From IMG/VR virus record IMGVR_UViG_3300012953_000069, positions 1 through 40,530 of that record: a DNA stretch of 40,530 nt, one strand, 5' to 3'. Under the pieces are notes generated by a model, which had not been told where the DNA came from, made no database searches, and was given only the letters and a program-made list of their open reading frames with translations. Each line of letters begins with the position of its first letter. Position 1 is the stretch's first letter. The stretch comes from a virus. Its lineage: Duplodnaviria > Caudoviricetes. Shown piece by piece: positions 70-13,866 of the stretch. Position numbers and translations under genes: made by a program.

Positions 70-92
70 CTCAGAACAAAACTTATACCATA

Positions 93-320
93 ATGGCATT
101 TACAAGGAATACTACTCAGAATGGAGGATTGCTTGGAACAATCGTCAAAACCAGTGATGGTAAATTTGATTGGTTTCTAAAAGAAAAGTTTACTGATGCA
201 ACCGTAGATTCTAAGACTGGTGGTCAAACAGGAACTCTAACTATTGCTGAAGGTGCAGGTGTAGCAGATTATGATACTGCAGCAGCAGATCTCAAAGCAG
301 CATTCACAGCAGCAGGATAA
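93..320 (+). CDS. small hypothetical protein (75 aa), paralog of 324..569
   Basis: ATG ORF behind a late-promoter motif. Aligns end to end by eye with the next ORF (MA[FY]xR...LL...DxK[FW]...D[ST]K...YDxAAA...AAG). Confidence 0.75.
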   Translation: MAFTRNTTQNGGLLGTIVKTSDGKFDWFLKEKFTDATVDSKTGGQTGTLTIAEGAGVADYDTAAADLKAAFTAAG

Positions 321-323
321 ACA

Positions 324-569
324 ATGGCATATCTTCGTGATAAAGACACTGGTGCAAATCAGTTGTTAATGAACATTCAATTACGGAATGATGATAAGTG
401 GTATGTTCAATTGTTTGAGTCATTTATTGAAGCAGAGATTGATACAAAACCATACTTGATGAATGGTAAAGTACGGTTGCATTCAACTGGACCGTATTCT
501 ACTTATGATAAAGCAGCTGCTGTGGCAAGAGAAGCAATTATCGCTGCGGGAGTTGACTCATTATGTTAG
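324..569 (+). CDS. small hypothetical protein (81 aa), paralog of 93..320
   Basis: ATG ORF 3 nt after the previous stop, with a shared motif pattern. Confidence 0.75.
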   Translation: MAYLRDKDTGANQLLMNIQLRNDDKWYVQLFESFIEAEIDTKPYLMNGKVRLHSTGPYSTYDKAAAVAREAIIAAGVDSLC

Positions 570-1323
570 CAGGTATATTCATATTTACGTCGCCTGAATA
601 GGTTAGAAAAGTATATCCCTCCATTCGCCTCTCAGAGAATTCTATCATAGGATCCTTTGAGAGGTGATTTCCTGGTATGTGATATCCCATTGGCACATTA
701 TTTCGTTTACATCCTTTCTTGAACTCTCCCAATGCTTGCAGGAATTGGGGGTTATCCCATTCTGCTGTACAACCGAGAGATGCTGAAAGATCAAACGGAC
801 CTATTAGTGCAGCATCTACATCGACACTTAGAATCTCATCGATGTTTTGTAAAGCTTCGACATGCTCTATCATTGGTATGAGTAACGGTTGTTGTCCTAA
901 CCCCTCTCGGTACTCATGGAATTGTATCCCATACCCGTTTCCTCTGTTGAACCCCATGCCCCGTGTGCCTCTGGGTGGGAGCGAGAAACTCTCTTTTATC
1001 TCAGCAAGTTGTGATTTACTTCTTATCTGAGGAACTATAATACCAGCAGCACCTTGTTCTAATGCTTCTACAGCACAATAGGAATCTGGTTTAGCAATAC
1101 GTGCTAGAGGTAATGTATTACCTAACTCTAATGCCCGAAATATATTTGGTAACTGGTTACGTGATATGTTACTATGTTCTAAGTCCACTCCAACAAAGTC
1201 AAATCCTCGTGATCCTAAGACCTCTGCAACCTCAGGACATGGTAGTTGCATCCACGACCCAATAACATAGTTACCCTCTACTAAATATTGTCGAATCTTT
1301 TGAACTGCTGCAAATTTATTCAT
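538..1323 (-). CDS. HpcH/HpaI family 2-keto-3-deoxy-sugar-acid aldolase (class II pyruvate aldolase)
   Basis: Motifs GFDFVGVDLEH, GAAGIIVP, PPRGTRG, PMIE..ALQNIDEIL, IGPFDLSASLG. Likely start is the ATG at 1323 (MNKFAAVQK); the ORF-track extension to 1437 overlaps the SGNH gene. Confidence 0.88.
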   Translation of the reverse strand: MNKFAAVQKIRQYLVEGNYVIGSWMQLPCPEVAEVLGSRGFDFVGVDLEHSNISRNQLPNIFRALELGNTLPLARIAKPDSYCAVEALEQGAAGIIVPQIRSKSQLAEIKESFSLPPRGTRGMGFNRGNGYGIQFHEYREGLGQQPLLIPMIEHVEALQNIDEILSVDVDAALIGPFDLSASLGCTAEWDNPQFLQALGEFKKGCKRNNVPMGYHIPGNHLSKDPMIEFSERRMEGYTFLTYSGDVNMNIPANIMSQLPQR

Positions 1324-2014
1324 GATTTTATTTACTGGTTGTAGTTGGACATTTGGTGGTGAGTTAGAAGGAGTAGAAAAAAATTGGGAATTTAGAAGAG
1401 ATAATAGGTTTTCTGCAAGTTTTCCACAATCTATCAATATATCAAAGTGTGGTATATCGAATGAAAGAATAGTAAGTAATACAATTGACTACTTAGAGAA
1501 GAATACTAAACCAGATTTTGTGGTGGTGCAGTTTACTATATTGGACAGATACTCTGTAGTAAACCCTCATTCTGGATATGGTGCTGATTGGTTGAGTCTA
1601 CAAGCATATCAAACCGACCCTAGTAGGAGACATACTCCAGAATTTGTATTAGCAAAGACTTTTTTAAAGAATTTTCATAATCCTGAGTATGCACAAAATG
1701 AATTTTGGAGAAATGTATGTCTATTAGAGAACTATTTGGACAATAAAGACATACCTTACTACATGATGAGAATAGATATGGATCAATTTGTTAGACCAGA
1801 ATTACCAAATGTTTATAAAAATGCATGTAAGAACAAAAATATGTTCAAATTATGCGAAAATCTAATTGGTCATGTAAGAAAAACGACTCTTCCACCCAAT
1901 CCTAACTACTGTCCCAACCTAAGTCACATAGATTGCAACTACGGTGGTGGTCATCCAAGTGCAAAAGGACACAAATTAATTGCAGATCATCTCCAAGGCA
2001 TAGTACCAAAGTAA
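1322..2014 (+). CDS. SGNH/GDSL-fold hydrolase or acyltransferase-like protein, paralog 1
   Basis: N-terminal FTGCSWTFG (block I nucleophile Ser), GISN..I (block II) and C-terminal GGHPSAKGHKLIA (block V His). Confidence 0.8.
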   Translation: MILFTGCSWTFGGELEGVEKNWEFRRDNRFSASFPQSINISKCGISNERIVSNTIDYLEKNTKPDFVVVQFTILDRYSVVNPHSGYGADWLSLQAYQTDPSRRHTPEFVLAKTFLKNFHNPEYAQNEFWRNVCLLENYLDNKDIPYYMMRIDMDQFVRPELPNVYKNACKNKNMFKLCENLIGHVRKTTLPPNPNYCPNLSHIDCNYGGGHPSAKGHKLIADHLQGIVPK

Positions 2015-2898
2015 TTATACCACTCATCGTAGTACTTTGCAAGGTATTTTCGACCAAATTCAAGGTCTTCTTCAGTCAAGTCTTCCAAATCTGACGACCA
2101 TTGGTCTCTTGTGTACTCATGACGAGGTGCTTTTGTTCCCATTTCTGGAAAATATGCATTTGGCCACAATTTTTCAAATTTGAAATCTAAAAATTTCTCT
2201 AAGTTTTCTTGACAATTATTTTTTCCACCCCATAAATCCTCAGAAACGATACTTATGGTACTAAAATGCTCGTTAAATGATTTAAAACTGCCAACATAGT
2301 CAGAATTTGGAGTAATTTCTCCTTTTTTAAGATAACTTTTCCAATATTCTTTTGAAGTACTATAACTATTTTGCAATTCTTTGGAATCTTGATATCTTTG
2401 AGATATTTCTGAGTATAATCTTCTTGTTGGATCCCTAAAAATCTTCAAAACCTTGATATCAAAGTGTTTTTTAAGTACTGGAGCAATTTTTGCAATAAAA
2501 CTCCTTGGTAAATTAGCATTACTATTGGAAAAATCGTGAACATACTTGAATTTGTGCTTCACACGTTCATAATGACGCTTATAATACTTAATGTATATCT
2601 GTAAATTCGGACTTCTAGTGTAAAATTCTTCAATTTCTTCTAAATTATTGTGATAACCATATTTTGACTGATATCCATATGGATGTGACCATTTTGGAGT
2701 CATCGAATCGCCAACAAGACGTTTATACCAAGGTTCTCTCCATTGCCATACGCTAGGGTCATAAATATTCATCAGGAAATGGGGTTCTTTCATTAACCCT
2801 TGATGACTACATTTATTTGCACATGATAGTGTAAGATGAAGTGGAGTAGTCGCACACCAACCATGTCCTGCCCCTATTATAAATGGAATCTTAGTCAT
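1987..2898 (-). CDS. sulfotransferase-fold (P-loop-like) protein, paralog 1
   Basis: IIGAGHGWCATTPL loop, KEPHF, DFSN, FRDPTRRLYS (3'-phosphate-binding motif) and the family C-terminal YFPEMGTKAP...DQW. Confidence 0.75.
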   Translation of the reverse strand: MTKIPFIIGAGHGWCATTPLHLTLSCANKCSHQGLMKEPHFLMNIYDPSVWQWREPWYKRLVGDSMTPKWSHPYGYQSKYGYHNNLEEIEEFYTRSPNLQIYIKYYKRHYERVKHKFKYVHDFSNSNANLPRSFIAKIAPVLKKHFDIKVLKIFRDPTRRLYSEISQRYQDSKELQNSYSTSKEYWKSYLKKGEITPNSDYVGSFKSFNEHFSTISIVSEDLWGGKNNCQENLEKFLDFKFEKLWPNAYFPEMGTKAPRHEYTRDQWSSDLEDLTEEDLEFGRKYLAKYYDEWYNYFGTMPWR

Positions 2899-3601
2899 GA
2901 AAATATTATTCAGTGGGGATAGTTTTACCTACGGTGACGAATTGTCAAATAGAGAAAAAGATCGTTTCTCTAGACTAGTTAGCGATCATTTCCATGCAGA
3001 AGAAATAAACCTTGGAACAAACGGTTCTTCAAACGATAAAATTGTTCGTAATGTATTTGAACATCTTTCATTATGGGATGTAGATGCTGTAGTTATACAA
3101 TTTTCAGAAATAAAAAGATTTGATGTTTATCAGCATAATGATCCTGCCATTTTAATAAAGAACGCTGTAGATCCTCTCTATAATGAAGGATGGGTTAGTA
3201 TTGCACCTGCAAATATAGGTGGAGAGTTCGGAGAGGTAGATCATTTTAGAAAATCTAGAGCAATACCTTATTATAAACACATTCAGGACAATGTAACTGA
3301 TCAACAACGGTATTTTCAACAAATATTATTATTACAACTGTATTTGAAACAAAAAAATATACCTTATGTTATGTTACACTTAGAAAGTTTTAAATATAAA
3401 CATCATAAAGTTCATAGACCAAATTACTATATGAATCAATGTGAGGAGTTTGAAAGTATCATACCAAATATTATAGGAGAACATTTTGGTGAATACTTCT
3501 GTCCTGATCTTAGAAAGAAGGGACATCCTGAAAAACACGGTACACACCCCAATATCAAAGGTCATCGTTTGATAGCAGATCACATCATAGGTAAATTATG
3601 A
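2897..3601 (+). CDS. SGNH/GDSL-fold protein, paralog 2
   Basis: FSGDSFTYG, NLGTNGSSNDKI and THPNIKGHRLIA. Confidence 0.82.
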   Translation: MKILFSGDSFTYGDELSNREKDRFSRLVSDHFHAEEINLGTNGSSNDKIVRNVFEHLSLWDVDAVVIQFSEIKRFDVYQHNDPAILIKNAVDPLYNEGWVSIAPANIGGEFGEVDHFRKSRAIPYYKHIQDNVTDQQRYFQQILLLQLYLKQKNIPYVMLHLESFKYKHHKVHRPNYYMNQCEEFESIIPNIIGEHFGEYFCPDLRKKGHPEKHGTHPNIKGHRLIADHIIGKL

Positions 3602-4650
3602 AACTGACTCATAAACCTAGAATACCAGTTTCGTTACCACCTAAGAAACCAGTTTTACTGATGAACCTTGGGACTGGGTGGTCAGCAACTACTCCGTTCT
3701 TATATACTCTTACAATAGATCAAAGATATTGTCATCCTGGTCATATTAAGGAAAATCATTACCTTTACACCATATTTGAAAAAAATATATTGAATGAGAC
3801 CACTATAAGAGATTTTATTCTAAGGACATCTGCAAATGAATCCCATTGGCTCTTTAGGGGGTGGCAAAAAGAATTATTTGAATATAATTATCATTTTATG
3901 GATGATCCTGACTATGTTAAAAACTGGTATCAAGATGTAAGTATTGAAAAGTATATTGATTATTATCTAAAACATTGGGAAATTGTAAAAAATGATTTTC
4001 ATGCTGTAGCAGATTTCTCAAATCATAATTGGTCGTTACCTTATTGGGAAAATGGTAAAGAGATGATAGACAAGATAAAGGAAGTATTTGATCTGAAGGT
4101 AACAGTGCAATTTAGAGATCCAATTAGAAGATTGTACTCTGAACTAGGAACTTGTTTTATTGATGAACGAACTCCGTATTTGGAGCGTACTGCAACAGAT
4201 AAAAAAATGAGAGAGGGTGAATATTTTCTAAAAAATAAGATGCATAATGAGTTTTTCAAATATTGTCTTACTGATATGGCTCATAAGAGTGCAAATTGTC
4301 AATATGTGGATTTGTATAATAAATGGGAATGGTTAGTTGGTCCAAAAAATATATTATATATTGTTATGGAAGAATTTTGGGATCCTGCTTTACGAAAACA
4401 ACAATGTGAGAGATTATCTAACTTTTTAGATTCTCCAATTCAAAAAGTTCACGAGAATGTTTATTTTCCTGATAAAGGTGCAGATGCTCCTCATTATGAA
4501 GGACTTATAGATCAATGGACTTCAGATAAAGAGACAATTACTGAAGAAACTATAAAATATGCTATGAAATATTTCTTTCCCAAGTATAATCAATGGAAGT
4601 TCAGATTTGGAGAAATACCTGAGGCATGGAACAAACGAAACAAACTATGA
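3598..4650 (+). CDS. sulfotransferase-fold protein, paralog 2
   Basis: NLGTGWSATTP, KENHY, DFSN, FRDPIRRLYS and HENVYFPDKG.AP...DQW. ATGA overlap with the upstream gene. Confidence 0.75.
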   Translation: MKLTHKPRIPVSLPPKKPVLLMNLGTGWSATTPFLYTLTIDQRYCHPGHIKENHYLYTIFEKNILNETTIRDFILRTSANESHWLFRGWQKELFEYNYHFMDDPDYVKNWYQDVSIEKYIDYYLKHWEIVKNDFHAVADFSNHNWSLPYWENGKEMIDKIKEVFDLKVTVQFRDPIRRLYSELGTCFIDERTPYLERTATDKKMREGEYFLKNKMHNEFFKYCLTDMAHKSANCQYVDLYNKWEWLVGPKNILYIVMEEFWDPALRKQQCERLSNFLDSPIQKVHENVYFPDKGADAPHYEGLIDQWTSDKETITEETIKYAMKYFFPKYNQWKFRFGEIPEAWNKRNKL

Positions 4651-5243
4651 AAATTGATTTTATTACAGAACCTTGGGAACATATAATTATTGACGATTTT
4701 CTGTCACCAGAAAGATTTGAGCATATCCAAGATCTTGCAATTCAAGAATTAGGAAGGTTTCAAGTAGAAGGACCAAATACTTTCAGACGTGACAAATATG
4801 TGAGATATACTAAAGAAGACTTACTTCCTGAGGTAACAATGGATATTATGAAACTATTACCTCATAGAGAGTATGATGATCTGGTAAAGTTGAATCATTG
4901 GGCTATTATGCCACCTAATGCAGATTATCCTACTCATATAGACAATGCATCAAGAATACATACCTTTACGTTTTACGTAGCACCAGAAAAAAATTTAGGA
5001 ACCATATTGTGTGATAATCCAAGTACTAACGATAATGGTGATCATGGACAACCTGATAAATCTACAATTTGTGAGTATCCAATAGAATGGAAACCTAATA
5101 GAGCATTTGTACATAATCCAAGACCTAAACAATGGCATAGGTATAGGTCTGGGGATACTCATAGAATAAATTTATCCGTATTTTATGCAGATCCAACTAA
5201 GATAAGGTCTCATAGGCAAGATTTTGACTACTTTATTGATTAG
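4647..5243 (+). CDS. 2OG-Fe(II) oxygenase superfamily protein
   Basis: PWEHIIIDDFL N-terminus, HxD (THIDN), GT.L, WKPNRAF, distal His (WH) and R (HRINL). The ATG at 4647 gives an ATGA overlap with the upstream stop. Confidence 0.8.
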   Translation: MKIDFITEPWEHIIIDDFLSPERFEHIQDLAIQELGRFQVEGPNTFRRDKYVRYTKEDLLPEVTMDIMKLLPHREYDDLVKLNHWAIMPPNADYPTHIDNASRIHTFTFYVAPEKNLGTILCDNPSTNDNGDHGQPDKSTICEYPIEWKPNRAFVHNPRPKQWHRYRSGDTHRINLSVFYADPTKIRSHRQDFDYFID

Positions 5244-6051
5244 TGCTGGTACAGCGTTTTCTGCTACCTCACCTCTACATTATACTTTAGGTTTAGATAA
5301 CAAATATACTCACACTGGGTTATGTAAGGAGAACTATTATCTCTATTCTCTACAGGAAGGTGTTGATATAACATTTGGTCGAGATACGTCAAATAGCAAA
5401 CCTCCAGAAATGACCATTACACATGGTTGTGAGGAATTGTTTGGTAAAAAGTCAATTGATGGGTATATTAGATATTATCAACGTTTGTGGGAGCATATAA
5501 AGTCCGATTACCAAGCAGTTGCTGATTTCTCTAATCAAAATGCTTGTTTAAGTGAAAAATTTATGCAATCTATAAAACCAAGGTTACTTGAACACTTTGA
5601 TGTTAAGGTAATCATGATTTTTAGAGATCCTATTCGTAGATTATGGTCAGTTTGTAATAAAGGTAATATTAGAGAGTTCCGTAGATGGGTTAGTGGTGAA
5701 TTAGAACCAAACGCCATGTATGCTGACATTTATAAAAGACATAGAAATGTTTGGGGTGAAGAAAACGTTCATATGATAGTAATGGAAGAATTGTGGGACG
5801 GAAAGACGCAATCACTTTCAGATTTTTTAGATTTTCCTATAAACACAGTTCATGAAAATGTTTACTATCCAGAAAAAGGAACTAAAGCACCACATTACGA
5901 ATATTTGAAGGATCAATGGATATCTGACAGACGTAATTTAGATTTAAAGACATGGGCATATGCTATGAACAATATGGGTTGGGTATATAAAGATTTTAAG
6001 GATACTTTTGGATACATACCTGATAAGTGGGGTGAATGGTATGAAACCTAA
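5224..6051 (+). CDS. sulfotransferase-fold protein, paralog 3
   Basis: SAGTAFSATSPL, KENYY, DFSN, FRDPIRRLWS and HENVYYPEKGTKAP...DQW. TTG start. Confidence 0.75.
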   Translation: MTTLLISAGTAFSATSPLHYTLGLDNKYTHTGLCKENYYLYSLQEGVDITFGRDTSNSKPPEMTITHGCEELFGKKSIDGYIRYYQRLWEHIKSDYQAVADFSNQNACLSEKFMQSIKPRLLEHFDVKVIMIFRDPIRRLWSVCNKGNIREFRRWVSGELEPNAMYADIYKRHRNVWGEENVHMIVMEELWDGKTQSLSDFLDFPINTVHENVYYPEKGTKAPHYEYLKDQWISDRRNLDLKTWAYAMNNMGWVYKDFKDTFGYIPDKWGEWYET

Positions 6052-7006
6052 GTTATTATTGAATGCTGGTACAAATTTTTCAGCAACAACACCATTATGG
6101 TATACTTTAGGATTGAATAATCATTATGCTCATACTGGACACGCAAAGGAGCACAATTATCTGTATCATATGATGATTGATGCGAAAAGGTCTATTAATA
6201 CACCTAGTCAACTCAATTCATCTGTTAGATTGACTCAAAAGTGGGAACAAACTGATTTGATAAAAAAAACCAAGAAGAAGGAGAAAAAGAGGGATGGAAA
6301 AGATGGATTTATGCATGTTTATCCTGAGATGACTAAAAGGTCACCTTTCATAGAAGGTAAGTGGACATTAGAAGAAAGAAGAGATTTTTTTGATAATCCA
6401 GAACTTAGTATTGACAAATATATCAAATATTACCTAAAACATTGGGAAAACTTCAAATGTGAATATCAATCAGTTGCAGACTTCTCTAATACTAATGCTT
6501 GCTTGTCTGTAGAGTTTATGGAAAGGATAAAACCTAAGTTATTAGAATATTTTGATATAAAAGTAACAATGATCTTTAGAGATCCTATTCGTAGGTTATT
6601 TTCAGCGTGTAATAGAGTTCATTCTAAATCTGGTGGAATTATGGAAGGATTTAGAAGTTGGGTCTTATTTGACAGTATGGAAGAGAACGTTTACTACTCA
6701 GACATCTATAATAGGCATTGTCAGGTATGGGGTAAAGAAAATGTAATGCCTATTATAATGGAGGAGTTCTCTACAGACAAATTATCTGATTTTTTAGGTT
6801 ATAGTCTAGTTACTGCTCATCAGAATTGTTATTATCCTGAAATGGGTTCTAATGCACCAAAATATCCTGGATTGTCAGATCAATACACTTCAGATAAGAT
6901 AGATTTGTATAAAGAGACTTATGAGTTTGCTTTAGAACATATGGAGAACATTTATAAATCATTTGAAGACACTTTTGGTTATATACCCGAAACATGGAAA
7001 AAATAA
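6041..7006 (+). CDS. sulfotransferase-fold protein, paralog 4
   Basis: Likely ATG at 6041 (MKPKLLLNAGTNFSATTPL), then KEHNY, DFSN, FRDPIRRLFS and YYPEMGSNAP. Confidence 0.75.
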   Translation: MKPKLLLNAGTNFSATTPLWYTLGLNNHYAHTGHAKEHNYLYHMMIDAKRSINTPSQLNSSVRLTQKWEQTDLIKKTKKKEKKRDGKDGFMHVYPEMTKRSPFIEGKWTLEERRDFFDNPELSIDKYIKYYLKHWENFKCEYQSVADFSNTNACLSVEFMERIKPKLLEYFDIKVTMIFRDPIRRLFSACNRVHSKSGGIMEGFRSWVLFDSMEENVYYSDIYNRHCQVWGKENVMPIIMEEFSTDKLSDFLGYSLVTAHQNCYYPEMGSNAPKYPGLSDQYTSDKIDLYKETYEFALEHMENIYKSFEDTFGYIPETWKK

Positions 7007-7911
7007 AACTTTTACTAGGTGCTGGAGTTCCTTACGCTGCTACAACACCACTTTGGTTTACTTTGGCTTTGGACAATAAGTATTGTCATACTGGACATAG
7101 AAAAGAACCCCAATGGTTAGATATTATTCAAAAACAAGAAGAACAAAAATATATCTCCCCAGAAAAATATGAGCAAGGATACAGATTTGTAGACAGAAGT
7201 CGAGGGTTTACAAAAACTCCTAATGTTTATTATAGGTCTAGACACAAAAAACCTTGGTGGATAATGAGAACGGCATTTAGTAGAGAAGAAGAAGATTATT
7301 TCTTTACTTTACCAACATCTATTGACAAATATATTGAATATTATACGGAGCATTGGAAATGGATAAAAGGTGAATATCAATCTGTTGCTGATTTTTCAAA
7401 TAGCACTTGTAGACTAAAAAAACAGTTTATGTTAGATATTCGTGAAAAACTGTTAGAAGTTTTTGATGTAAAAGTAATTATGATCTTCAGAGATCCAATT
7501 CAGAGATTATGGTCTATGGCAAAATGCGATTATAAAAATCTCAAAAGTTTTGAAAAAACATGGACATATCATCGTGGTAGTGTCACACCTACGGGTTGGT
7601 CTAATTATAGTAAGATGTATACCAATCATTCTGAGGTTTGGGGTAAAGAAAACGTATTACCTCTTATAATGGAAAAGGCATGGAAAGATCCTTCAGACCT
7701 ATCAAATTTTTTAGGATACAAGATTGAAAAGATGCATGAAAACGTTTATTACCCAGAAAGAGGAACTAAAGCTCCAAAACTTCGATTTTTACCAGATCAA
7801 TGGACACATGAAGCTGCTGATATAGATTATCCTAAACTAAGAAAAGAATTTGATTGGTTATACGTAGATTTTGAAAAAACCTTCGGATATCTGCCTGAGG
7901 AATGGCAATAA
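6994..7911 (+). CDS. sulfotransferase-fold protein, paralog 5
   Basis: GAGVPYAATTPL, KEPQW, DFSN, FRDPIQRLWS and HENVYYPERGTKAP. Confidence 0.75.
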   Translation: MEKIKLLLGAGVPYAATTPLWFTLALDNKYCHTGHRKEPQWLDIIQKQEEQKYISPEKYEQGYRFVDRSRGFTKTPNVYYRSRHKKPWWIMRTAFSREEEDYFFTLPTSIDKYIEYYTEHWKWIKGEYQSVADFSNSTCRLKKQFMLDIREKLLEVFDVKVIMIFRDPIQRLWSMAKCDYKNLKSFEKTWTYHRGSVTPTGWSNYSKMYTNHSEVWGKENVLPLIMEKAWKDPSDLSNFLGYKIEKMHENVYYPERGTKAPKLRFLPDQWTHEAADIDYPKLRKEFDWLYVDFEKTFGYLPEEWQ

Positions 7912-7914
7912 ATA
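7908..7914 (+). promoter_or_regulatory. possible late promoter motif (ATAAATA)
   Basis: Overlaps the stop of paralog 5 and lies only 4 nt before the ATG at 7919. Confidence 0.4.
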
Positions 7915-7918
7915 AAAA

Positions 7919-8812
7919 ATGGAAAAAATAAAACTTTTACTAGGTGCTGGAGTTCCTTATTCGGCTACAACACCACTTTGGTATACATTGACTTGGGATC
8001 ATAAGTATTGTCATACTGGACATAAAAAAGAACCTCAATGGTTAGACATTATCCAAAAACAACAAGAACAAAAGTATAATCTGAGGTATGATCGAGGAAT
8101 TAGATTTAAAGATAGAAGATCTAAGTTTACACGAATTCCTTATTTTTATCTTGGACACAAAAAACCTTGGTGGATACAAAGAACTAAATTTAATAGGCAA
8201 GAAGAAGATTCTTATTTCTCTTTACCAACTACTCTTGAGCAATATATTGATTATTATAAAAAACATTGGAACGATGTAAAATATGAGTTTCAATCTGTTG
8301 GCGATTTTTCTAATAGTACTTGTGCTCTAAAAAAACAGTTTATGTTAGATATTCGTGATCAATTGCTAGAAGTTTTTGATATAAAGGTAATTTTGATTTT
8401 TAGAAACCCAGTTTATCGATTATGGTCTGCCTCAAAATGCAATTATGAAAAAATATTAAGTCCAAATGGAAAAGTTGATAATTGGAATCATTATGCTAAA
8501 ATGTATACTAAACATTGTGAGGTTTGGGGTAAGGAGAATGTATTACCTCTTATAATGGAGAGAGTGTGGAAGGATCCTAGCGAATTGTCAGATTTTTTGG
8601 GATACAAGATTGAAAAGATGCATGAAAACGTTTATTACCCAGAAAGAGGAACTAAATGCCCAACACCTCAATTTTTACAAGATCAATGGGCAGGTGATGC
8701 TAGTGAATTGGCAAAAGAGATAGATTATGAAAGTATGAGGGAAGAATTTGATTGGTTATACGTAGATTTTGAAAAAACCTTCGGATATCTGCCAGAAGAA
8801 TGGTCACCATGA
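7919..8812 (+). CDS. sulfotransferase-fold protein, paralog 6 (recent duplicate of paralog 5)
   Basis: GAGVPYSATTPL, KEPQW and FRNPVYRLWS. Shares nucleotide-identical blocks with 6994..7911. Confidence 0.75.
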   Translation: MEKIKLLLGAGVPYSATTPLWYTLTWDHKYCHTGHKKEPQWLDIIQKQQEQKYNLRYDRGIRFKDRRSKFTRIPYFYLGHKKPWWIQRTKFNRQEEDSYFSLPTTLEQYIDYYKKHWNDVKYEFQSVGDFSNSTCALKKQFMLDIRDQLLEVFDIKVILIFRNPVYRLWSASKCNYEKILSPNGKVDNWNHYAKMYTKHCEVWGKENVLPLIMERVWKDPSELSDFLGYKIEKMHENVYYPERGTKCPTPQFLQDQWAGDASELAKEIDYESMREEFDWLYVDFEKTFGYLPEEWSP

Positions 8813-9643
8813 GTCTATTGCGTATTTTGGGTATATTCCATGTGCTTTGCACTCGATATATTGGTGAGTTAGTTTTTTTCGTGCATATTCGTACTCTTCC
8901 TTAGATAACGTCTCAGTATCCGATTTTTGGCACTTTAGACCTTCTATGGTTGGTGCATCGACTCCTTTTTCTGGCCAATACGCTGTAGGGTAAAGATCGA
9001 CTGGAACTTCAAGGTAATCTTTCAATTCTTGAAGTGCATTTGATTCTGGGGTGTATAAATCTTCCATTATGATATGATGCGGATTATATCCTGCAATTTT
9101 CCAATTATCAAAGTGATATGTGTAATTTTCGGACTTAGTTAGACTACCAGTATCTAAAACCTCCATAAAGTAATCTTTTGCTGTTGGTTGTTCTGTTTTC
9201 ACCCATTTATTGTTATACCAAGTACAACATTCAGAAAACAACCTACGAACAGGATTTCTGAATATCATTATTACTTTTATATCAAAATTCTCTTCTAATC
9301 GCTGTTTTATCTCTACCAAGAAATTCATGGGTAATTTTTGGTTAGCATTTGTAAAATCAGTTACAGCATCGTATCCTTTTGCATTATTTTTATATAAATT
9401 AATATATTTTGATAAAGTTACGTTATCCCATATATCCTCTGGATAATCATATTTTTTCTTTCTATTTACAGCATCTTTGAGTTGACTGGCGGTTTTTATT
9501 GATAATAAAACACTTTTATGACTTAGCTCATCTAATAAATGATCTTCTTTACATATACCATGATTACAAGTTGGTAATGAAAACATTATAGATCTTGTTG
9601 CTGCCCATCCTATACCAGCACCAATGATTAGTTTTGGTTTCAT
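8804..9643 (-). CDS. sulfotransferase-fold protein, paralog 7
   Basis: IIGAGIGWAATRS, KEDHL, DFTN, FRNPVRRLFS and YWPEKGVDAP. Confidence 0.75.
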   Translation of the reverse strand: MKPKLIIGAGIGWAATRSIMFSLPTCNHGICKEDHLLDELSHKSVLLSIKTASQLKDAVNRKKKYDYPEDIWDNVTLSKYINLYKNNAKGYDAVTDFTNANQKLPMNFLVEIKQRLEENFDIKVIMIFRNPVRRLFSECCTWYNNKWVKTEQPTAKDYFMEVLDTGSLTKSENYTYHFDNWKIAGYNPHHIIMEDLYTPESNALQELKDYLEVPVDLYPTAYWPEKGVDAPTIEGLKCQKSDTETLSKEEYEYARKKLTHQYIECKAHGIYPKYAIDSW

Positions 9644-9648
9644 AAATA
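9642..9648 (+). promoter_or_regulatory. possible late promoter motif (ATAAATA)
   Basis: Overlaps the start codon of the minus-strand gene and lies 24 nt upstream of the small ORF at 9673. Confidence 0.5.
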
Positions 9649-9672
9649 TTACGCACTTACTCTTTATGTATT

Positions 9673-9762
9673 ATGAGAAGACTGTGGGACTGGATTAAAG
9701 GCGAGTATAAACTTTGGAAGTTGCGTAAGGAAGATCCATATATTTACGAAGATGACGACTAA
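9673..9762 (+). CDS. 29-aa small protein MRRLWDWIKGEYKLWKLRKEDPYIYEDDD (not in the ORF track)
   Basis: Translated by hand. Follows a late-promoter motif and its stop overlaps the next gene's start region. The 'KxDP[YF]IY' ending resembles, from recollection, small ORFs near phage carbamoyltransferases. Confidence 0.6.
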   Translation: MRRLWDWIKGEYKLWKLRKEDPYIYEDDD

Positions 9763-10720
9763 AATACCTTTATTGGTATTTGGTGGATGGGGTCATGCGG
9801 CTTCTACTCCTTTTTATTATACTTTAGCAGTAGATAATAAGTATTGTCATGGTGGACATAGAAAGGAAACTGGGTATCTCAACGAATTAGAGAACTATGA
9901 GTTTTTTGATCAACCTATGTGGACGTACACTAGCGATCCATATGATAGGTTGATGGTAAAGAGTTCTAGTATGCCACCAATACTAGATTCATATGTAAAG
10001 CATAGTGAGGAGTTTATCCGAGATTGGATAGCAGAACCACCTAGTATTGATAAGTATATTCATTATTATCAAATTCACTATGAAAATATCAAACATGAAT
10101 ATAAAGCAGTTGCCGACTTTACTAATGGTAACTCTTGGTTGAGAGAACCATTTCTTGACAAGTACATACCTGCATTGCAAGAATTTTTTGATATCAAGTG
10201 CATATTTGTTGCCAGAGATCCAGTCCGTAGATCATATTCAGATTTTAGTGCTAAGTTTACTAATAACTGTCCTAGTGGTAGATGGTATAATAAGGGGGAA
10301 ATCTATCCTGGCAATAAAATGGATAATACCTATGATTCTATAGGAGAGTTATTCAAAGGTGAGTTACATAAGACTTGTACTAGGTTTTATGTTGAATTTT
10401 ATAAGAAATTCAGCAAATACTTCCCAACTCTTCAAATTGTGATGGAGGATTTCTGGGAACCTGATAACTTTACTGAACAGACTGAAAGGTTATCTAACTT
10501 CTTAGATTATCCAATTACAAAGATACATGAAAATGCTTTTTGGCCAGAAGCAGGTGAAAATGCACCTAAATACGATTTCCTGAAGGATCAATGGGGATCT
10601 GTAAGGGAACCACTAACAAAAGAGTTGTACGATTATGCTAGAGAACAATTGGATCCAGTCTACTCACAATGGGAAGACGAGTTTGGATCTTTGCCGAGTT
10701 CTTGGGGTAAAAATATATGA
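9752..10720 (+). CDS. sulfotransferase-fold protein, paralog 8
   Basis: FGGWGHAASTPF, KETGY, DFTN, ARDPVRRSYS and HENAFWPEAGENAP...DQW. Confidence 0.75.
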   Translation: MTTKIPLLVFGGWGHAASTPFYYTLAVDNKYCHGGHRKETGYLNELENYEFFDQPMWTYTSDPYDRLMVKSSSMPPILDSYVKHSEEFIRDWIAEPPSIDKYIHYYQIHYENIKHEYKAVADFTNGNSWLREPFLDKYIPALQEFFDIKCIFVARDPVRRSYSDFSAKFTNNCPSGRWYNKGEIYPGNKMDNTYDSIGELFKGELHKTCTRFYVEFYKKFSKYFPTLQIVMEDFWEPDNFTEQTERLSNFLDYPITKIHENAFWPEAGENAPKYDFLKDQWGSVREPLTKELYDYAREQLDPVYSQWEDEFGSLPSSWGKNI

Positions 10721-12096
10721 TAGGGTTTAGTGAAGGGTTTCATGATGCTGGTATTGCGGTTGTTCACAAGAATACCATTAGTTACGCTGCACATTCTGAA
10801 AGATACTCTAAAAAGAAGCATGATAAGAGATTAGACCTCACGCCAATTACTATGGCACGAGGAATGAATATTCATGATGATGTGGTGGCATTTTATGAAA
10901 ATCCATTACTAAAAAGAACCAGACAACTATATGCAGGGCAAAAAGCATGGAGAAGAGATAGAGAGTTATCTTTACAACCAAATGTCTATATGCAGCATCA
11001 TAAATCACATGCTGCTGCTGCATTCCAGACATCTAATTTTGAACATGCAGCATGTGTAGTAGTAGATAGTATTGGTGAGTGGGATTGTTCCTCAGTATGG
11101 ACTGCTAATATAGTAAACGGTTCAGCAGTATATAAAAAAGTATGGTCTAGGAAGTATCCTAACTCTATAGGACTTTGGTATAGTGCATTGACTAAATGGG
11201 CAGGGTTAAGACCATTAGATGAAGAATATATCTTTATGGGAATGGCAGCCTTTGGAAAACCTAGTCATACCAAGGAGTTACGAGCATTACTTTCTAAGAA
11301 TAACCATAAAGGTATACGTGGACTAGAAGGTGAACCATGTGATGTGGCAAAGAGTGCAGAGGTTGTCCTTCAAGAAGAACTGTTCAAAATATTTGATATT
11401 GCTAAAAAATATAGTAACAATATTTGCTATGGGGGTGGAGTTGCCCTAAACTGTGTTGTAAATACAAAACTAAGGGAAAGGTGCAATCTATGGATTATGC
11501 CCAATCCTGGCGACGCTGGAGGTGCTTTAGGTGCAGCTTTACTTGCATACGGTAAGAAGGTTCAATTTACCCCCTATCTTGGATATAACATCAGGGGTGA
11601 AGTGGATCCAGAAGAAGTGGTCGATCATTTACTCAAACATAAAATCGCTGGTGTTGCAAATGGTCGTGCTGAGTTTGGTCCTCGTGCTCTTGGTAATAGA
11701 AGTCTATTGGCGGATCCAAGAGAAATTTCAACCAAAGATCTCGTCAACGAAATAAAACAACGTCAGAAGTTTAGACCATTTGCTCCTGCTATACTAGAAG
11801 AGCATTGTCAGGAATGGTTTGATATGCCAGAACATTCTAGGCATATGTCATATGTTTACCAGTGTAAGCAGAGTGACCTCATTCCTGCTTGTCTACACGT
11901 TGACAACTCTGCTAGGGTACAAACAGTACCAGAGACATCTGAAAGCGTTCTAAGACCTATATTAGAGTGTTGGTACGAGAAGACGGGATGTCCTGTATTG
12001 TTGAATACATCTCTGAATGTTCGAGGTAAACCAATGGTAAATAGCGTTGAAGACGCAAAATTCTTCTCTAGTGAATATTCAGTAAAGGTTTTTTGA
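10717..12096 (+). CDS. carbamoyltransferase, NodU/CmcH/TobZ family
   Basis: FHDA, ERYSKKKHD, HHKSHAAAAF, DSIGE, GGGVALN, PNPGDAG, GRAEFGPRALGNRSLLADP, FRPFAP, HVDNSARVQTV and LNTSLN. Confidence 0.95.
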   Translation: MIGFSEGFHDAGIAVVHKNTISYAAHSERYSKKKHDKRLDLTPITMARGMNIHDDVVAFYENPLLKRTRQLYAGQKAWRRDRELSLQPNVYMQHHKSHAAAAFQTSNFEHAACVVVDSIGEWDCSSVWTANIVNGSAVYKKVWSRKYPNSIGLWYSALTKWAGLRPLDEEYIFMGMAAFGKPSHTKELRALLSKNNHKGIRGLEGEPCDVAKSAEVVLQEELFKIFDIAKKYSNNICYGGGVALNCVVNTKLRERCNLWIMPNPGDAGGALGAALLAYGKKVQFTPYLGYNIRGEVDPEEVVDHLLKHKIAGVANGRAEFGPRALGNRSLLADPREISTKDLVNEIKQRQKFRPFAPAILEEHCQEWFDMPEHSRHMSYVYQCKQSDLIPACLHVDNSARVQTVPETSESVLRPILECWYEKTGCPVLLNTSLNVRGKPMVNSVEDAKFFSSEYSVKVF

Positions 12097-12815
12097 TGAA
12101 AATATTATTTCATGGATGTTCAATCACTTGGGGTGATGAACTTGAAGATCGTGAAAACGAAAGATACAGTAAGTTAGTTTCTGATAAATTTGATACTAAA
12201 GAGAATAACATTGCTCTGTGTGGTAATAGTAATGATAGGATTGTAAGGGAGACTATAGAATATTTGAAAACATCTAAAGTAGATGTAGTGGTTATGCAGT
12301 TTACTGTCCATTCAAGAATGGAGTGGTTTGATAAACAGGGGTTTCCTCATAAGTTTACACCACAACTTACTACAACTCACGGAAAACTAAAACTCAAAGG
12401 TAACCCTATGTCTGATGAGTTAAGAGAAAGATTGCATTCTGCAGGTAAATGGTTTTATAGATTTGTATATAACGATATTCTTGGCGTAGAGAATATGTGG
12501 AAGAATATGGTCTTTTTTGATTCTTATTGCAAAGCAAATGATATTACCTTTATTCCTCTTTTAGCAGATCACTTTCACGAAGTAATTCGTAGACCAGAAA
12601 AGTTTTACTATACTGAAAAGAATGGTACTGGTTGGTGGAAACCACTATATCAAGGTTTACCTATAACATATATTCATGAGGACATCATAGGTCATAAAAA
12701 AGATGGTATAGGAGATCATTACTACGGTGAATATCATGCAGAGGGAAATCATCCTAATGCCTTAGGACATCAAAAGATATCAGAAAAAGTTATTGAGTTG
12801 ATAGAAGCTATATAA
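12096..12815 (+). CDS. SGNH/GDSL-fold protein, paralog 3
   Basis: FHGCSITWG, NIALCGNSNDRI and NHPNALGHQKI. The ATG at 12096 overlaps the upstream TGA (TGATG). Confidence 0.8.
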   Translation: MKILFHGCSITWGDELEDRENERYSKLVSDKFDTKENNIALCGNSNDRIVRETIEYLKTSKVDVVVMQFTVHSRMEWFDKQGFPHKFTPQLTTTHGKLKLKGNPMSDELRERLHSAGKWFYRFVYNDILGVENMWKNMVFFDSYCKANDITFIPLLADHFHEVIRRPEKFYYTEKNGTGWWKPLYQGLPITYIHEDIIGHKKDGIGDHYYGEYHAEGNHPNALGHQKISEKVIELIEAI

Positions 12816-12826
12816 TCTGTTATAAT
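12798..12826 (+). promoter_or_regulatory. sigma70-type promoter TTGATA-N17-TATAAT with extended -10 TG
   Basis: TTGATA at 12798-12803, 17-nt spacer, TG at 12818-12819 and TATAAT at 12821-12826, 26 nt upstream of the ATG at 12853. Confidence 0.7.
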
Positions 12827-12852
12827 ATTGTTGGATTGCAACCCATTATAGT

Positions 12853-13611
12853 ATGGCTAAAGGATTTAAGGTGGTAACCACCCCACCTACTACAGAACAA
12901 AAGGAAGACTGGTGGTCTGTAGAAAAAGGAAAAGAATTGATCAAAGGTAAGAGTATTGTCTTTTGTCTACCTGGTCGTGGCGTTTCTTACATATTTTTGA
13001 AGGCATTTGTACAACTTTGCTTTGATCTGGTTCAAAGTGGTGCAAGCATTCAAATCTCACAAAATTATAGTTCAATGGTAAACTTTGCACGTTGTAAGTG
13101 CTTAGGTGCTAATGTTCTAAGAGGACCAGATCAACTACCATGGGACGGGAAGTTAAAGTATGACTATCAACTTTGGATTGACAGTGATATCGTTTTCAAC
13201 CTCGAAAACTTTTATCGCATTGTATGTATGGACAAGGATCTTGCTGCTGGTTGGTACGCTACGGAAGACGGTAAAACGACATCCGTTGCTCACTGGCTTG
13301 AAGAGGATGACTTTAAGGAAAACGGTGGGGTAATGAATCATGAGATGGTTGACAGTATTCAAAAACGCAAAAAACCATTTACTGTTGATTATACTGGTTT
13401 TGGTTGGTTACTAATCAAACATGGTGTCTTTGAAAATAAAGAAATGACTTATCCTTGGTTTGCACCTCAGATGCAGGTGTTTGATTCTGGTGAAGTTCAA
13501 GACATGTGCGGAGAGGATGTATCATTCTGTCTTGATGCATTGAAGGCAGGATATGAAATCTGGTGTGACCCACAGTGTAGAGTAGGGCATGAGAAAACAA
13601 GAATTATATAG
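12853..13611 (+). CDS. GT-A fold glycosyltransferase-like protein (conserved cyanophage gene upstream of gp25)
   Basis: WIDSD (DxD) motif, GFGWLLI, GEDVSFC and VGHEK. The MAKGF N-terminus is typical of the cyanomyovirus family as I recall it. Confidence 0.75.
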   Translation: MAKGFKVVTTPPTTEQKEDWWSVEKGKELIKGKSIVFCLPGRGVSYIFLKAFVQLCFDLVQSGASIQISQNYSSMVNFARCKCLGANVLRGPDQLPWDGKLKYDYQLWIDSDIVFNLENFYRIVCMDKDLAAGWYATEDGKTTSVAHWLEEDDFKENGGVMNHEMVDSIQKRKKPFTVDYTGFGWLLIKHGVFENKEMTYPWFAPQMQVFDSGEVQDMCGEDVSFCLDALKAGYEIWCDPQCRVGHEKTRII

Positions 13612-13637
13612 ATACCTGTAAAGAATGATTACGGTAT

Positions 13638-13811: not shown

Positions 13812-13835
13812 CTATCAGGCTACGGAGCATCCAAT

Positions 13836-13866
13836 AAAGACCCTTCTTTGAGAAGGGTCTTTTTTT
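13836..13866 (+). terminator. intrinsic terminator
   Basis: Perfect inverted repeat AAAGACCCTTCT-TTG-AGAAGGGTCTTT followed by a T run. Confidence 0.9.

What the first reader, a model, noticed from the sequence alone, without database searches (positions are those of the whole stretch)
538..13611. Phage-encoded multi-enzyme tailoring island: 8 sulfotransferase-like, 3 SGNH, carbamoyltransferase, 2OG oxygenase, aldolase and glycosyltransferase beside the baseplate operon
Seen: about 13 kb of tightly packed, often translationally coupled genes, nearly all group-transfer or tailoring enzymes, directly upstream of gp25-gp6-gp7-gp8, with late-promoter motifs inside the island. Established: sulfotransferase (NodH-like), NodU carbamoyltransferase and SGNH O-acyl transferases/esterases together decorate glycans such as Nod factors and surface polysaccharides, and HpcH-type aldolases form keto-deoxy sugar acids. 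Inference: a dedicated pathway that builds and combinatorially decorates a glycan, either on the Ser/Thr-rich virion proteins or on host LPS (receptor masking or superinfection exclusion). DNA hypermodification is an alternative. I know of no characterised phage system with this level of paralog expansion.
Basis: partly seen in the sequence, partly recalled or inferred. Interest (0 to 1): 0.88.

Follow-up and report, generated by a model that had tools for sequence, protein, structure and literature searches.

The report
Cyanophage sugar-tailoring island with rewired sulfotransferases
A group of uncultured marine cyanobacterial viruses carries, next to its baseplate genes, a fast-changing block of enzymes built around one carbamoyl-adding enzyme, a tiny overlooked tyrosine-bearing protein and many sulfotransferase-shaped proteins that lack the usual catalytic lysine; together they likely decorate a sugar chain, probably on the virus particle, but neither the target nor the chemistry has been tested.

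Summary
The island is real, intact and selected: 8 sulfotransferase-fold (ST), 3 SGNH/DUF6071, 1 carbamoyltransferase (CT), an HpcH aldolase, a 2OG-like protein and a GT-A gene. It marks one uncultured cyanomyovirus clade: 23 of 24 loci with a close GT carry it, against 3 of 47 more distant loci. CT is single-copy; ST (1-9) and SGNH (1-7) vary.

Corrections: the GT is a wider-clade gene with its own sigma70-type promoter, and a terminator separates it from gp25.

Additions: (1) about 99% of 301 ST sequences have an aromatic residue in place of the PSB lysine, while 3'-phosphate residues are kept and a new Arg and lid motif appear; (2) an unannotated 29-residue DP(Y/F)IY microprotein accompanies this CT branch and DUF6071 SGNHs in phages and bacteria, often beside glycosyltransferases.

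Likely mechanism (inferred): a CT -> microprotein Tyr -> SGNH Ser carbamoyl relay onto a cytoplasmically made glycan, most likely a virion glycan. DNA modification is disfavoured. The scan noted similar islands, the lysine-less family and the microprotein before on other DNA. My searches found no paper describing them.

The parts
538..1323 (-). HpcH/HpaI-type class II aldolase, 261 aa from the likely start at 1323 (longest ORF runs to 1437); accessory, in 12 of 28 long islands
   Evidence: PF03328 E 1.9e-18; start from homologues
1322..2014 (+). SGNH/DUF6071-type protein 1; its ATG overlaps the aldolase start (CATG)
1987..2898 (-). ST-fold paralogue 1 (Trp at the PSB lysine position)
2897..3601 (+). 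SGNH/DUF6071-type protein 2; ATAAATA at 2761 lies 136 nt upstream
   Evidence: DUF6071 E 2.1e-10, over the cut-off
3598..4650 (+). ST-fold paralogue 2 (Trp)
4626..5243 (+). 2OG-Fe(II)-oxygenase-like protein (H104-x-D106, H171, R180); accessory, in 11 of 28 long islands
   Evidence: motifs invariant in 11 homologues; copy count; no Pfam or PDB hit
5224..6051 (+). ST-fold paralogue 3 (Phe); the copy that was modelled
6008..7006 (+). ST-fold paralogue 4 (Phe)
6994..7911 (+). ST-fold paralogue 5 (Tyr); its nearest relatives in the data sit at the tail-fibre site of other phages
7919..8812 (+). ST-fold paralogue 6 (Tyr); ATAAATA at 7908
   Evidence: PF13469 E 1.9e-5
8804..9643 (-). ST-fold paralogue 7 (Trp)
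9642..9648 (+). Late-promoter-type ATAAATA ahead of the microprotein-ST-CT-SGNH run; a late motif within 60 nt upstream of the microprotein is seen in 16 of 44 hits
9673..9762 (+). Unannotated 29-aa microprotein: amphipathic basic N-terminus, DP(Y/F)IY motif, invariant second Tyr; predicted carbamoyl shuttle or CT partner
9752..10720 (+). ST-fold paralogue 8 (His)
10717..12096 (+). O-carbamoyltransferase of the NodU/CmcH/TobZ superfamily; the single-copy fixed core of the island
   Evidence: PF16861 6e-52, PF02543 1e-31; PDB relatives; single copy in 27 of 28 long islands
12093..12815 (+). SGNH/DUF6071-type protein 3, coupled to the CT
12798..12826 (+). sigma70-type promoter of the GT (TTGATA-17-TATAAT, extended -10); a comparable site in 90 of 92 distinct GT upstream regions, with or without the island
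12853..13611 (+). GT-A glycosyltransferase (phrog_1574, T4-GC 102); flanking gene of the wider P-SSM2/S-SSM7-like group, not island-specific
13836..13862 (+). Intrinsic-terminator-like hairpin between the GT and gp25; late motifs at 13871 and 13881 follow it
16176..16322 (+). Ser/Thr-rich C-terminal extension of baseplate gp6 (residues 622-669); candidate O-glycosylation site, inferred only

Best explanation
This is a clade-wide, shuffling cassette of soluble group-transfer enzymes in marine cyanomyoviruses that likely decorates a glycan made in the infected cell's cytoplasm, most likely one carried on the virion. Shown: a fixed core (microprotein, one CT, at least one DUF6071-type SGNH), variable ST and SGNH copies, purifying selection, late-type motifs, and no transmembrane segments. 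Inferred mechanism: (1) the CT activates carbamoyl phosphate with ATP, as TobZ/NodU-type enzymes do (established knowledge, recalled); (2) it would load the carbamoyl group on the invariant Tyr of the microprotein, by analogy with DltX and the PatA tail; (3) each SGNH paralogue would take it on its catalytic Ser and deliver it to a particular sugar hydroxyl, which would explain one CT and many SGNHs; (4) the ST-fold paralogues likely still bind a 3'-phospho-nucleotide (host PAPS is the simplest donor) and would sulfate further positions, with the newly conserved Arg138 and lid motif standing in for the lost PSB lysine; (5) the conserved GT-A, expressed earlier from its own promoter, would supply the first sugar on a virion protein, with the aldolase and 2OG enzyme editing sugar precursors. 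Gain, loss and swapping of paralogues would then vary the surface pattern between strains.
For: Clade-wide synteny: 23 of 24 GT-anchored loci at >=81.3% GT identity carry the island, 3 of 47 below (threshold chosen after seeing the data). CT single in 27 of 28 long islands, ST 1-9, SGNH 1-7. dN/dS to the best relative 0.07-0.43 wherever dS was measurable. Microprotein in 58 of 68 CT loci versus 1 of 59 GT loci without CT, and abutting or overlapping the CT start in 28; it varies synonymously at invariant residues; D, P and the second Tyr are invariant in 68 sequences. The same micro-ORF lies near related CTs in 28 of 79 GTDB loci and in 49 of 71 and 60 of 65 viral loci, and DUF6071-type SGNHs in 57 of 79, 51 of 71 and 34 of 65. 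8 of 14 hand-picked bacterial loci have glycosyltransferases or sugar-nucleotide enzymes beside the module. SGNH Ser and His are kept in 83 of 84. Tyr-to-SGNH-Ser relays are established for acyl groups (PMC12148441, passages). The GT model's top matches are STIV A197 (Z 15.4, rmsd 2.6, 161 aligned), mimivirus R699 (14.9), Mnn9 (14.2) and LH3/ColGalT1 (13.9). ATAAATA lies 5-160 nt upstream of a co-oriented island gene in 21 of 39 cases versus 7.5% expected, over 37 islands that are related to each other. Maximum hydropathy is 1.53 or less in every island protein. A Ser/Thr-rich gp6 tail is present in 18 of 38 island loci and 0 of 34 others.
Against: No substrate, product or activity has been shown. 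The GT has its own sigma70-type promoter (90 of 92) and exists without the island, and a terminator lies before gp25 in 39 of 49 island loci, so island, GT and baseplate are not one operon. 20 of 38 island loci lack the gp6 tail, and the tail is confounded with kinship. ST and SGNH paralogues also occur after the tail-fibre block and after nrdB. Only 5-10% of individual ST, SGNH or CT genes have ATAAATA within 150 nt. The PSB lysine that contacts PAP in NDST1 (PMC10864358, one passage) is absent, so sulfate transfer is not assured. The microprotein lacks the terminal Phe and the membrane helix of DltX-type shuttles, and the cited paper does not mention carbamoyl transfer. 6 of the 14 bacterial loci show no clear glycan context.
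Confidence: 0.42

Rival explanations
1. Same enzymes, but the target is the host surface: they would modify sugar-nucleotide or lipid-linked precursors in the cytoplasm and so change LPS or other surface glycans (superinfection exclusion, grazer avoidance).
For: Bacterial copies of the microprotein-CT-DUF6071 module sit with GT2, GT4, GT8, polysaccharide pyruvyl transferases and NDP-sugar epimerases. Related islands carry NDP-sugar epimerases. Cyanophage LPS-gene clusters are usually read this way (PMC3037559, PMC12801897, passages). Paralogues also sit away from structural genes.
Against: No membrane or exported component in the island. Late-type motifs fit assembly better than early receptor masking. 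The GT fold is nearest to protein glycosyltransferases.
Confidence: 0.22
2. The ST-fold proteins are not sulfotransferases: they would transfer another group from a 3'-phosphorylated nucleotide donor, or act as non-catalytic PAP/PAPS- or glycan-binding proteins. This concerns chemistry and can hold together with any target.
For: Lys replaced by W/F/Y/H in about 99% of 301 sequences, as one derived branch. No APS kinase in 5 partial records. A weak hit of one copy to an O-methyl phosphoramidate transferase model (E 0.0019, 17 bits against a 600-bit cut-off).
Against: 3'-PB Arg and Ser, the PSB Thr and the K-E pair are all kept. A new near-invariant Arg could replace the charge. The family grades into canonical K-type sulfotransferases, and one nested member has Arg. 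A cyanobacterial control genome has APS kinase.
Confidence: 0.3
3. DNA hypermodification: the CT would carbamoylate a hydroxymethyl base, or a glycosylated base would be decorated further, to resist restriction.
For: A phage CT of this superfamily makes 5-carbamoyloxymethylcytosine (PMC8670742, passages). The GT has a host-type promoter compatible with replication-phase expression.
Against: That system is defined by CT next to a thymidylate-synthase-like hydroxymethylase, and CTs on unmodified contigs were flanked by glycosyltransferases. No such gene appears in the island maps. ThyA-type: 0 of 5 partial records; ThyX: 2 of 5. The same module occurs in bacterial glycan loci. Strain-level copy-number change is not expected of a genome-wide base modification (inference).
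Confidence: 0.09
4. The product is a small molecule or a modified peptide: the microprotein would be the substrate (RiPP-like; Tyr in an acidic context), or the enzymes would tailor a metabolite as SxtI/J/K/L/N do in saxitoxin clusters.
For: The enzyme set parallels sxtI (CT), sxtK, sxtL (GDSL) and sxtN (sulfotransferase) (PMC2684587, PMC2679770, passages). Related islands add radical SAM and methyltransferase genes. The cyanophage microproteins have an acidic tail after the Tyr.
Against: No scaffold synthase, protease or exporter in the island. The microprotein is near-invariant while the enzymes vary, the opposite of precursor diversification (inference), and it travels with the CT in 215 loci that have no ST of this family.
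Confidence: 0.13

Closest known systems
Carbamoyltransferases and 'LPS' gene clusters of large T4-like cyanophages (P-SSM2, S-SM2, S-SSM7; Sullivan et al. 2010, PMC3037559; S-SCSM2R, PMC12801897)
   Same: Same virus group; phage-borne carbamoyltransferase and glycosyltransferases of untested function; S-SCSM2R ORF96 / P-SSM2 gp109 is the orthologue of the window's GT.
   Different: Those CTs are only about 30% identical. In three cultured phages the region upstream of the GT holds small hypothetical genes, not this island. The ST and SGNH families match only the single-cell virus AG-345-D19 by tblastn.
Heparan-sulfate 3-O-sulfotransferases / NDST1 sulfotransferase domain / Alicyclobacillus 3RNL
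   Same: Fold (Z 16.6, 16.1, 16.0; rmsd 3.2-3.4 over 215-220 residues), 3'-PB Arg/Ser, PSB Gly/Thr, K-E motif.
   Different: PSB Lys replaced by an aromatic residue; new Arg138, Met187 and a conserved N-x-Y-x-P-D...DQWxSD lid with no conserved basic residue; 12-17% identity.
DltB/DltX/DltD and PatA/PatB acyl-tyrosine relays (PMC12148441)
   Same: A microprotein with an invariant near-terminal Tyr, encoded with a donor-activating enzyme and SGNH proteins.
   Different: The donor enzyme here is a soluble carbamoyltransferase, not an MBOAT; no transmembrane helix; the motif is DP(Y/F)IY(E/K), not FXYXXF; no intermediate has been shown.
SxtI-SxtJ-SxtK-SxtL block of saxitoxin clusters (PMC2679770, PMC2684587)
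   Same: O-carbamoyltransferase with a small partner gene and a GDSL/SGNH gene; one GTDB locus (L230) has a membrane-type small ORF ending PFIYTLF beside a distant CT.
   Different: No DUF5989 match for the phage microprotein; no toxin scaffold genes; the link between SxtK and DUF5989 is recalled, not from a call.
5-hydroxymethylcytosine carbamoyltransferase (Yang et al. 2021, PMC8670742)
   Same: Phage-encoded CT of the same Pfam families.
   Different: No neighbouring dCMP hydroxymethylase; neighbours here are SGNH, ST and GT genes.
Mycobacteriophage virion glycosylation (Freeman et al. 2023, seen only as cited in PMC12619734)
   Same: Phage GTs encoded near structural genes; glycans on the C-termini of virion proteins.
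   Different: No tailoring array is mentioned in the passage seen; different virus group; the primary paper was not read.

Membership tests
PAPS-dependent sulfotransferases (HS 3-OST/NDST type) | P-loop sulfotransferase fold | tested here: met
   Model pLDDT 93.2; top five VIA matches are sulfotransferases, Z 16.6-15.1, against 8.3 for the best non-sulfotransferase; one of 8 copies modelled
PAPS-dependent sulfotransferases (HS 3-OST/NDST type) | 3'-phosphate-binding Arg and Ser (RxPxxRxxS) | tested here: met
   R134 100%, S142 99% of 301 sequences
PAPS-dependent sulfotransferases (HS 3-OST/NDST type) | Basic residue (Lys/Arg) in the 5'-PSB loop | tested here: not met
   W 56%, F 27%, Y 10%, H 6%, K 1% of 301; 0 of 8 window copies have it; the column aligns with the Lys of 3RNL
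PAPS-dependent sulfotransferases (HS 3-OST/NDST type) | Catalytic Glu after the PSB helix | tested here: met
   K35 91%, E36 88%; its role as base is recalled knowledge
PAPS-dependent sulfotransferases (HS 3-OST/NDST type) | Lid-loop Lys/Arg contacting PAP (K833/R835 in NDST1) | tested here: inconclusive
   No conserved basic residue in the lid columns, but model coordinates could not be superposed residue by residue
PAPS-dependent sulfotransferases (HS 3-OST/NDST type) | Sulfate transfer from PAPS | not testable with these tools
   needs an enzyme assay
NodH Nod-factor sulfotransferase | Sequence or fold closest to NodH/Stf0-type enzymes | tested here: inconclusive
   No such Pfam or NCBIfam hit; Stf0 scores Z 7.9 against 16 for HS-type; NodH itself was not listed
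O-carbamoyltransferases (NodU/CmcH/TobZ superfamily) | Carbam_trans_N plus Carbam_trans_C domains with conserved motifs | tested here: met
   Both over the cut-off; PDB relatives at E 1e-45 to 1e-33; H94/H98/D117 invariant in 66 sequences
NodU (equivalog) | NCBIfam NF041651 cut-off | tested here: not met
   123.7 bits against 1000
SGNH hydrolases/transferases | Block I Ser, block II Gly, block V His | tested here: met
   Ser 83, Gly 78, His 83 of 84; profile hits a GDSL structure at E 5e-5
SGNH hydrolases/transferases | Block V Asp (DxxH) and block III Asn | tested here: not met
   No conserved Asp three residues before the His; invariant N46 and R74 appear instead of a GxND motif; no structure model was made
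5hmC carbamoyltransferase DNA-modification system | CT encoded with a thymidylate-synthase-like dCMP hydroxymethylase | tested here: inconclusive
   None beside the CT; PF00303 in 0 of 5 records that are at most 59% complete, ThyX in 2 of 5
DltX/PatA acyl-tyrosine shuttles | Invariant Tyr near the C-terminus, encoded with an SGNH protein | tested here: met
DltX/PatA acyl-tyrosine shuttles | FXYXXF terminal motif, membrane anchor and MBOAT partner | tested here: not met
   Motif is DP(Y/F)IY(E/K); no hydrophobic helix; the partner is a CT
DltX/PatA acyl-tyrosine shuttles | Covalent acyl-Tyr intermediate | not testable with these tools
   needs mass spectrometry
SxtK / DUF5989 | Match to PF19451 | tested here: not met
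   0 of 5 records at E <= 10; no Pfam hit for two microproteins; sensitivity for 30 residues is low
GT-A glycosyltransferases | GT-A fold with DxD motif | tested here: met
   D110-S-D112 and G220-E-D222 invariant or nearly so; model pLDDT 79; Z 15.4 to STIV A197

The most novel reading that the evidence does not exclude
An abundant ocean virus clade builds a strain-specific, chemically edited glycan coat with two unstudied chemistries: a soluble carbamoyl-tyrosine relay (carbamoyltransferase -> 30-residue microprotein -> interchangeable SGNH transferases) and a virus-only branch of the sulfotransferase fold that works without the PSB lysine. The gene array is then a combinatorial code for virion surface chemistry.
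Probability: 0.2. Interest if true: 0.88.

Novelty: new variant of a known kind. Interest (0 to 1): 0.64.

Why it matters
Cyanophage carbamoyltransferases and glycan genes have been listed since 2010 without a function. This island gives a compact, soluble and directly testable system: three small genes for the carbamoyl step, which also occur in cultured actinobacteria, and one enzyme family that breaks a textbook sulfotransferase motif. A carbamoyl-Tyr relay would explain the small companion genes of O-carbamoyltransferases and give DUF6071 a function. Activity of the lysine-less family would revise the mechanism of sulfotransferases. A decorated virion glycan would be a new axis of strain variation in marine phages, affecting adsorption, decay and grazing.

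Tried and rejected
Complex prediction of a natural CT-microprotein pair from the close relative L003 gave 'no answer' (score 0.11, mark 0.32); it is not used as evidence either way.

DUF5989/SxtK membership of the microprotein: no HMM match. tblastn of the 29-mer against cultured phages gave only chance hits, although a relative exists unannotated in RsoM2USA, so that search is insensitive.

The 'c6' family next to many CTs found no match in Pfam, PHROGs, PDB sequences, the Atlas or the ST profile. 2OG identity could not be strengthened.

APS kinase and ThyA searches ran on 5 partial records only, so absence is not shown. RNA-library contigs from 3 studies lie patchily over the island at 90-99% identity; contigs cannot show strand, level or timing and may be DNA, so this is not used as proof of expression.

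The tree is the quick IQ-TREE result, as the careful run did not finish. One row (P0342) was labelled K by a regex slip; its real motif has Trp.

Rejected: assembly artefact; chance ORFs or decaying stuffer DNA; a single island-GT-baseplate operon; 'NodU' and 'NodH' as family names.

Literature searches with no relevant hit: cyanophage+sulfotransferase+carbamoyltransferase, 0 papers; the four-term phage search, 2 papers unrelated by listing; DUF6071, 0 papers; Campylobacter phosphoramidate transferase with sulfotransferase, none of the 10 listed held 'sulfotransferase'; no cyanophage transcriptome paper found for promoter timing. The library lacks most subscription journals. No supplements were read, and those of PMC3037559 and PMC8670742 could bear on promoters and CT classes.

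Full report
WHAT THE WINDOW IS. The window is a whole 40.5-kb virus contig. From 13909 on it encodes T4-like baseplate proteins gp25, gp6, a split gp7, gp8 and fibre-type proteins. Its GT gene has 104 relatives among deposited phage records, nearly all P-SSM2/S-SSM7-like cyanophages at 60-85% identity. Of five larger records carrying the same ST family, three encode a photosystem II reaction-centre protein, and one of the others encodes transaldolase and PTOX. The host is therefore a marine picocyanobacterium (inference). Contigs from other marine DNA runs cover all 30 bins of 1-14400, one of them spanning 625-6442 with 4 differences, so the island is not an assembly artefact.

The CT passes both Pfam cut-offs, the aldolase hits HpcH_HpaI, and one SGNH passes DUF6071. 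The eight ST-like proteins align at 31-38% to the first. A model of one (pLDDT 93.2) matches 3RNL, NDST1 and 3-OST-5 at Z 16.6, 16.1 and 16.0 (Foldseek agrees). The GT model (pLDDT 79) is GT-A, nearest to STIV A197, mimivirus R699, Mnn9 and LH3. The 2OG label rests on motifs alone (no support). Pairwise dN/dS to the best relative is 0.07-0.43 for every island gene where dS could be measured; one ST was saturated against its two best relatives and gave 0.28 against the third.

DISTRIBUTION. An ST-profile scan of IMG/VR returned 59 loci; most show ST/SGNH copies, then CT, then the GT, gp25 and gp6. To avoid selecting on the island I also scanned with the GT (best 80 of 600 from a partial scan). 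Among the 71 loci with at least 700 bp upstream, 23 of 24 at >=81.3% GT identity carry island genes and 3 of 47 below do (threshold set after seeing the data). S-SSM7, P-SSM2 and S-SCSM2R have only small genes at this position. Among 50,697 deposited phage records, the ST and SGNH queries matched only the single-cell virus AG-345-D19. In 28 island loci with at least 9 kb upstream (the window included, some redundant) the CT is single in 27, ST copies number 1-9, SGNH 1-7, the aldolase is in 12 and the 2OG-like gene in 11. The same ST and SGNH families also occur after the tail-fibre block and after nrdB.

ATAAATA is depleted in the window (6 versus 23 expected) and all six are on +. In 37 islands thinned at 95% CT identity, 21 of 39 ATAAATA sites lie 5-160 nt upstream of a co-oriented island gene, against 7.5% expected (the islands are related, so the p-value overstates the case). 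Only 5-10% of single ST, SGNH or CT genes have the motif within 150 nt, as expected for operons. The GT differs: a sigma70-type site lies upstream in 90 of 92 distinct regions, mostly 20-26 nt before the start, with or without the island. Controls were ST 11 of 176, SGNH 4 of 136, CT 11 of 48 and gp6 35 of 92, the last inside the gp25 coding sequence. gp25 has its own late motif in 89 of 92, and a terminator-like hairpin precedes it in 39 of 49 island loci. So the GT is an older, separately promoted flank gene, and the island is not simply the front of the baseplate operon. That TAAATA marks late and sigma70-type sites earlier genes follows T4-like phage practice as described in PMC3037559 (passages); timing was not measured.

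THE ST FAMILY IS REWIRED. In 301 family sequences (redundant) the 5'-PSB lysine position holds W, F, Y or H in about 99%, while R134 and S142 of the 3'-phosphate motif (100% and 99%), T15 and the K35-E36 pair are kept. The column aligns with the Lys of 3RNL; the equivalent K614 contacts PAP in NDST1 (PMC10864358, one passage). A search of 1.8 billion representatives found 132 proteins at E <= 1e-30, grading into canonical K-type enzymes at lower scores. In a quick tree of 58 rows the aromatic forms lie on one branch (SH-aLRT 95), once a mislabelled row is corrected. Comparing 65 aromatic with 16 K-type proteins, the aromatic branch has gained R138 (94%), M187 (98%) and a conserved lid motif. 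The Atlas's three best clusters are 100% viral. This is remodelling under selection, not decay. Whether sulfate is still the transferred group is open; I put it at about 70%.

A MISSED PART. A 29-codon ORF at 9673-9762, behind the ATAAATA at 9642, encodes an amphipathic basic helix ending in DPYIY plus acidic residues. It is found in 58 of 68 CT loci and in 1 of 59 GT loci without CT, that one being an island lacking CT. The ten misses have the CT cut by, or starting within 1.5 kb of, a contig end. In 28 loci it abuts or overlaps the CT start. Codon variation at invariant residues is synonymous. The same micro-ORF lies near related CTs in 28 of 79 GTDB loci (a lower bound; one is the membrane type, and some MAG contigs may be phage), in 49 of 71 and 60 of 65 other viral loci. 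DUF6071-type SGNHs are in 57, 51 and 34 of those sets, and none of these 215 loci has the ST family. D, P and the second Tyr are invariant in 68 aligned sequences. In 8 of 14 hand-picked bacterial loci the neighbours are glycosyltransferases or sugar-nucleotide enzymes; in other phages they are often radical SAM and sugar enzymes. So the mobile unit is microprotein + CT + SGNH, and this cyanophage clade has added an ST array where other phages add radical SAM arrays.

MECHANISM. I found the microprotein independently. In Dlt and Pat systems an acyl group passes from an invariant Tyr to an SGNH Ser and then to the glycan (PMC12148441, passages; carbamoyl is not mentioned). The SGNHs here keep Ser (83 of 84) and His (83 of 84), lack the block V Asp, and have an invariant Asn and Arg. 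The most economical model is CT -> microprotein Tyr -> SGNH Ser -> sugar hydroxyl, with one donor enzyme and many acceptor-specific transferases, and ST paralogues adding sulfate at other positions. Every catalytic step is inferred. For the target, the lack of membrane segments, late motifs, two of three known sites beside structural modules, the GT's likeness to protein glycosyltransferases and the gp6 Ser/Thr tail (18 of 38 island loci, 0 of 34 others; confounded with kinship and absent from 20 island loci) lean to a virion glycan. Host-surface precursors remain a strong rival. DNA modification is weaker: the known phage 5hmC carbamoyltransferase goes with a thymidylate-synthase-like gene (PMC8670742, passages), which is not in the island maps and was found in 0 of 5 partial records, 2 of which have ThyX.

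COMPARISON AND NOVELTY. Cyanophage carbamoyltransferases and LPS-type clusters are in print without a function (PMC3037559, PMC12801897, passages). Tandem dioxygenase arrays in cyanophages and sulfotransferase-dioxygenase operons with tail-collar proteins were proposed by Iyer et al. (PMC2938197, passages). Phage sulfotransferases are called functionally unclear in PMC10580990 (passages). My searches found no paper joining cyanophage, sulfotransferase and carbamoyltransferase and none naming DUF6071; the library lacks most subscription journals. The scan itself has noted similar islands, the lysine-less family and the microprotein on other genomes; these are unchecked notes and not independent support. 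The proteins work like sulfotransferases, an O-carbamoyltransferase and SGNH transferases, but the ST family fails one defining motif, the CT is not NodU, and the microprotein is not a DltX or DUF5989 member by the tests run. Verdict: real, unusual, directly testable in vitro; a new variant of a known but unexplained kind of phage tailoring cluster. Interest 0.64.

Noticed in passing
window 1321-1324 and 2896-2899; many loci: Divergent island genes often share an overlapping start (CATG, no intergenic space): 15 of 57 distinct divergent junctions, a few being the same junction read from both strands; about 15 more have AT-rich gaps of 10-41 nt. Promoters must then lie inside the neighbouring gene.
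   Followed up: partly
window 39306-40530: A second tailoring site after the tail-fibre block: a nucleoside 2-deoxyribosyltransferase-like ORF (PF05014 E 2.6e-8), a methyltransferase-like ORF (weak hit in a homologue) and an unknown ORF. In L046, L055, L056 and L058 two or three ST genes sit between the last two, and those are the nearest relatives of window STs 5 and 6, which suggests movement between sites.
   Followed up: partly
L151:14223-18950 (G002): A third cassette of four SGNH and one ST gene lies directly after nrdB in a related cyanophage contig.
   Followed up: partly
L004:7110-8159 (-) and 24 relatives: Unknown 235-390 aa family ('c6', YWxxPxxGK near the N-terminus), often inserted between the microprotein and the CT; no match in any library tried.
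   Followed up: partly
L145:8026-8136 (Ralstonia phage RsoM2USA): An unannotated DPFIY micro-ORF among three DUF6071 genes, a radical SAM gene and a CT in a cultured jumbo phage.
   Followed up: partly
window 13638-13811: Small acidic 57-aa ORF between the GT and gp25, similar to a cluster that matches phrog_3252.
   Followed up: no
window 16322-24577 and 24598-28302: The gp7-type baseplate protein appears as two ORFs (2751 and 1234 aa) matching the N- and C-terminal parts of phrog_2885; G002 shows the same split.
   Followed up: no
window 93-569: Two small ORFs (75 and 81 aa) behind a late motif at 62; relatives recur at the edge of several islands; no family match.
   Followed up: no
window 38095-39081: Short fibre-like protein with an Mtd_N domain (E 4.5e-6); homologues at this site vary from 328 to 1615 aa.
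   Followed up: no
   Followed up: no
proteins P0362 and P0370: Database proteins in which the C-terminal part of an ST is joined to the N-terminus of an unrelated dehydrogenase or epimerase; recombination scars or assembly chimeras.
   Followed up: no
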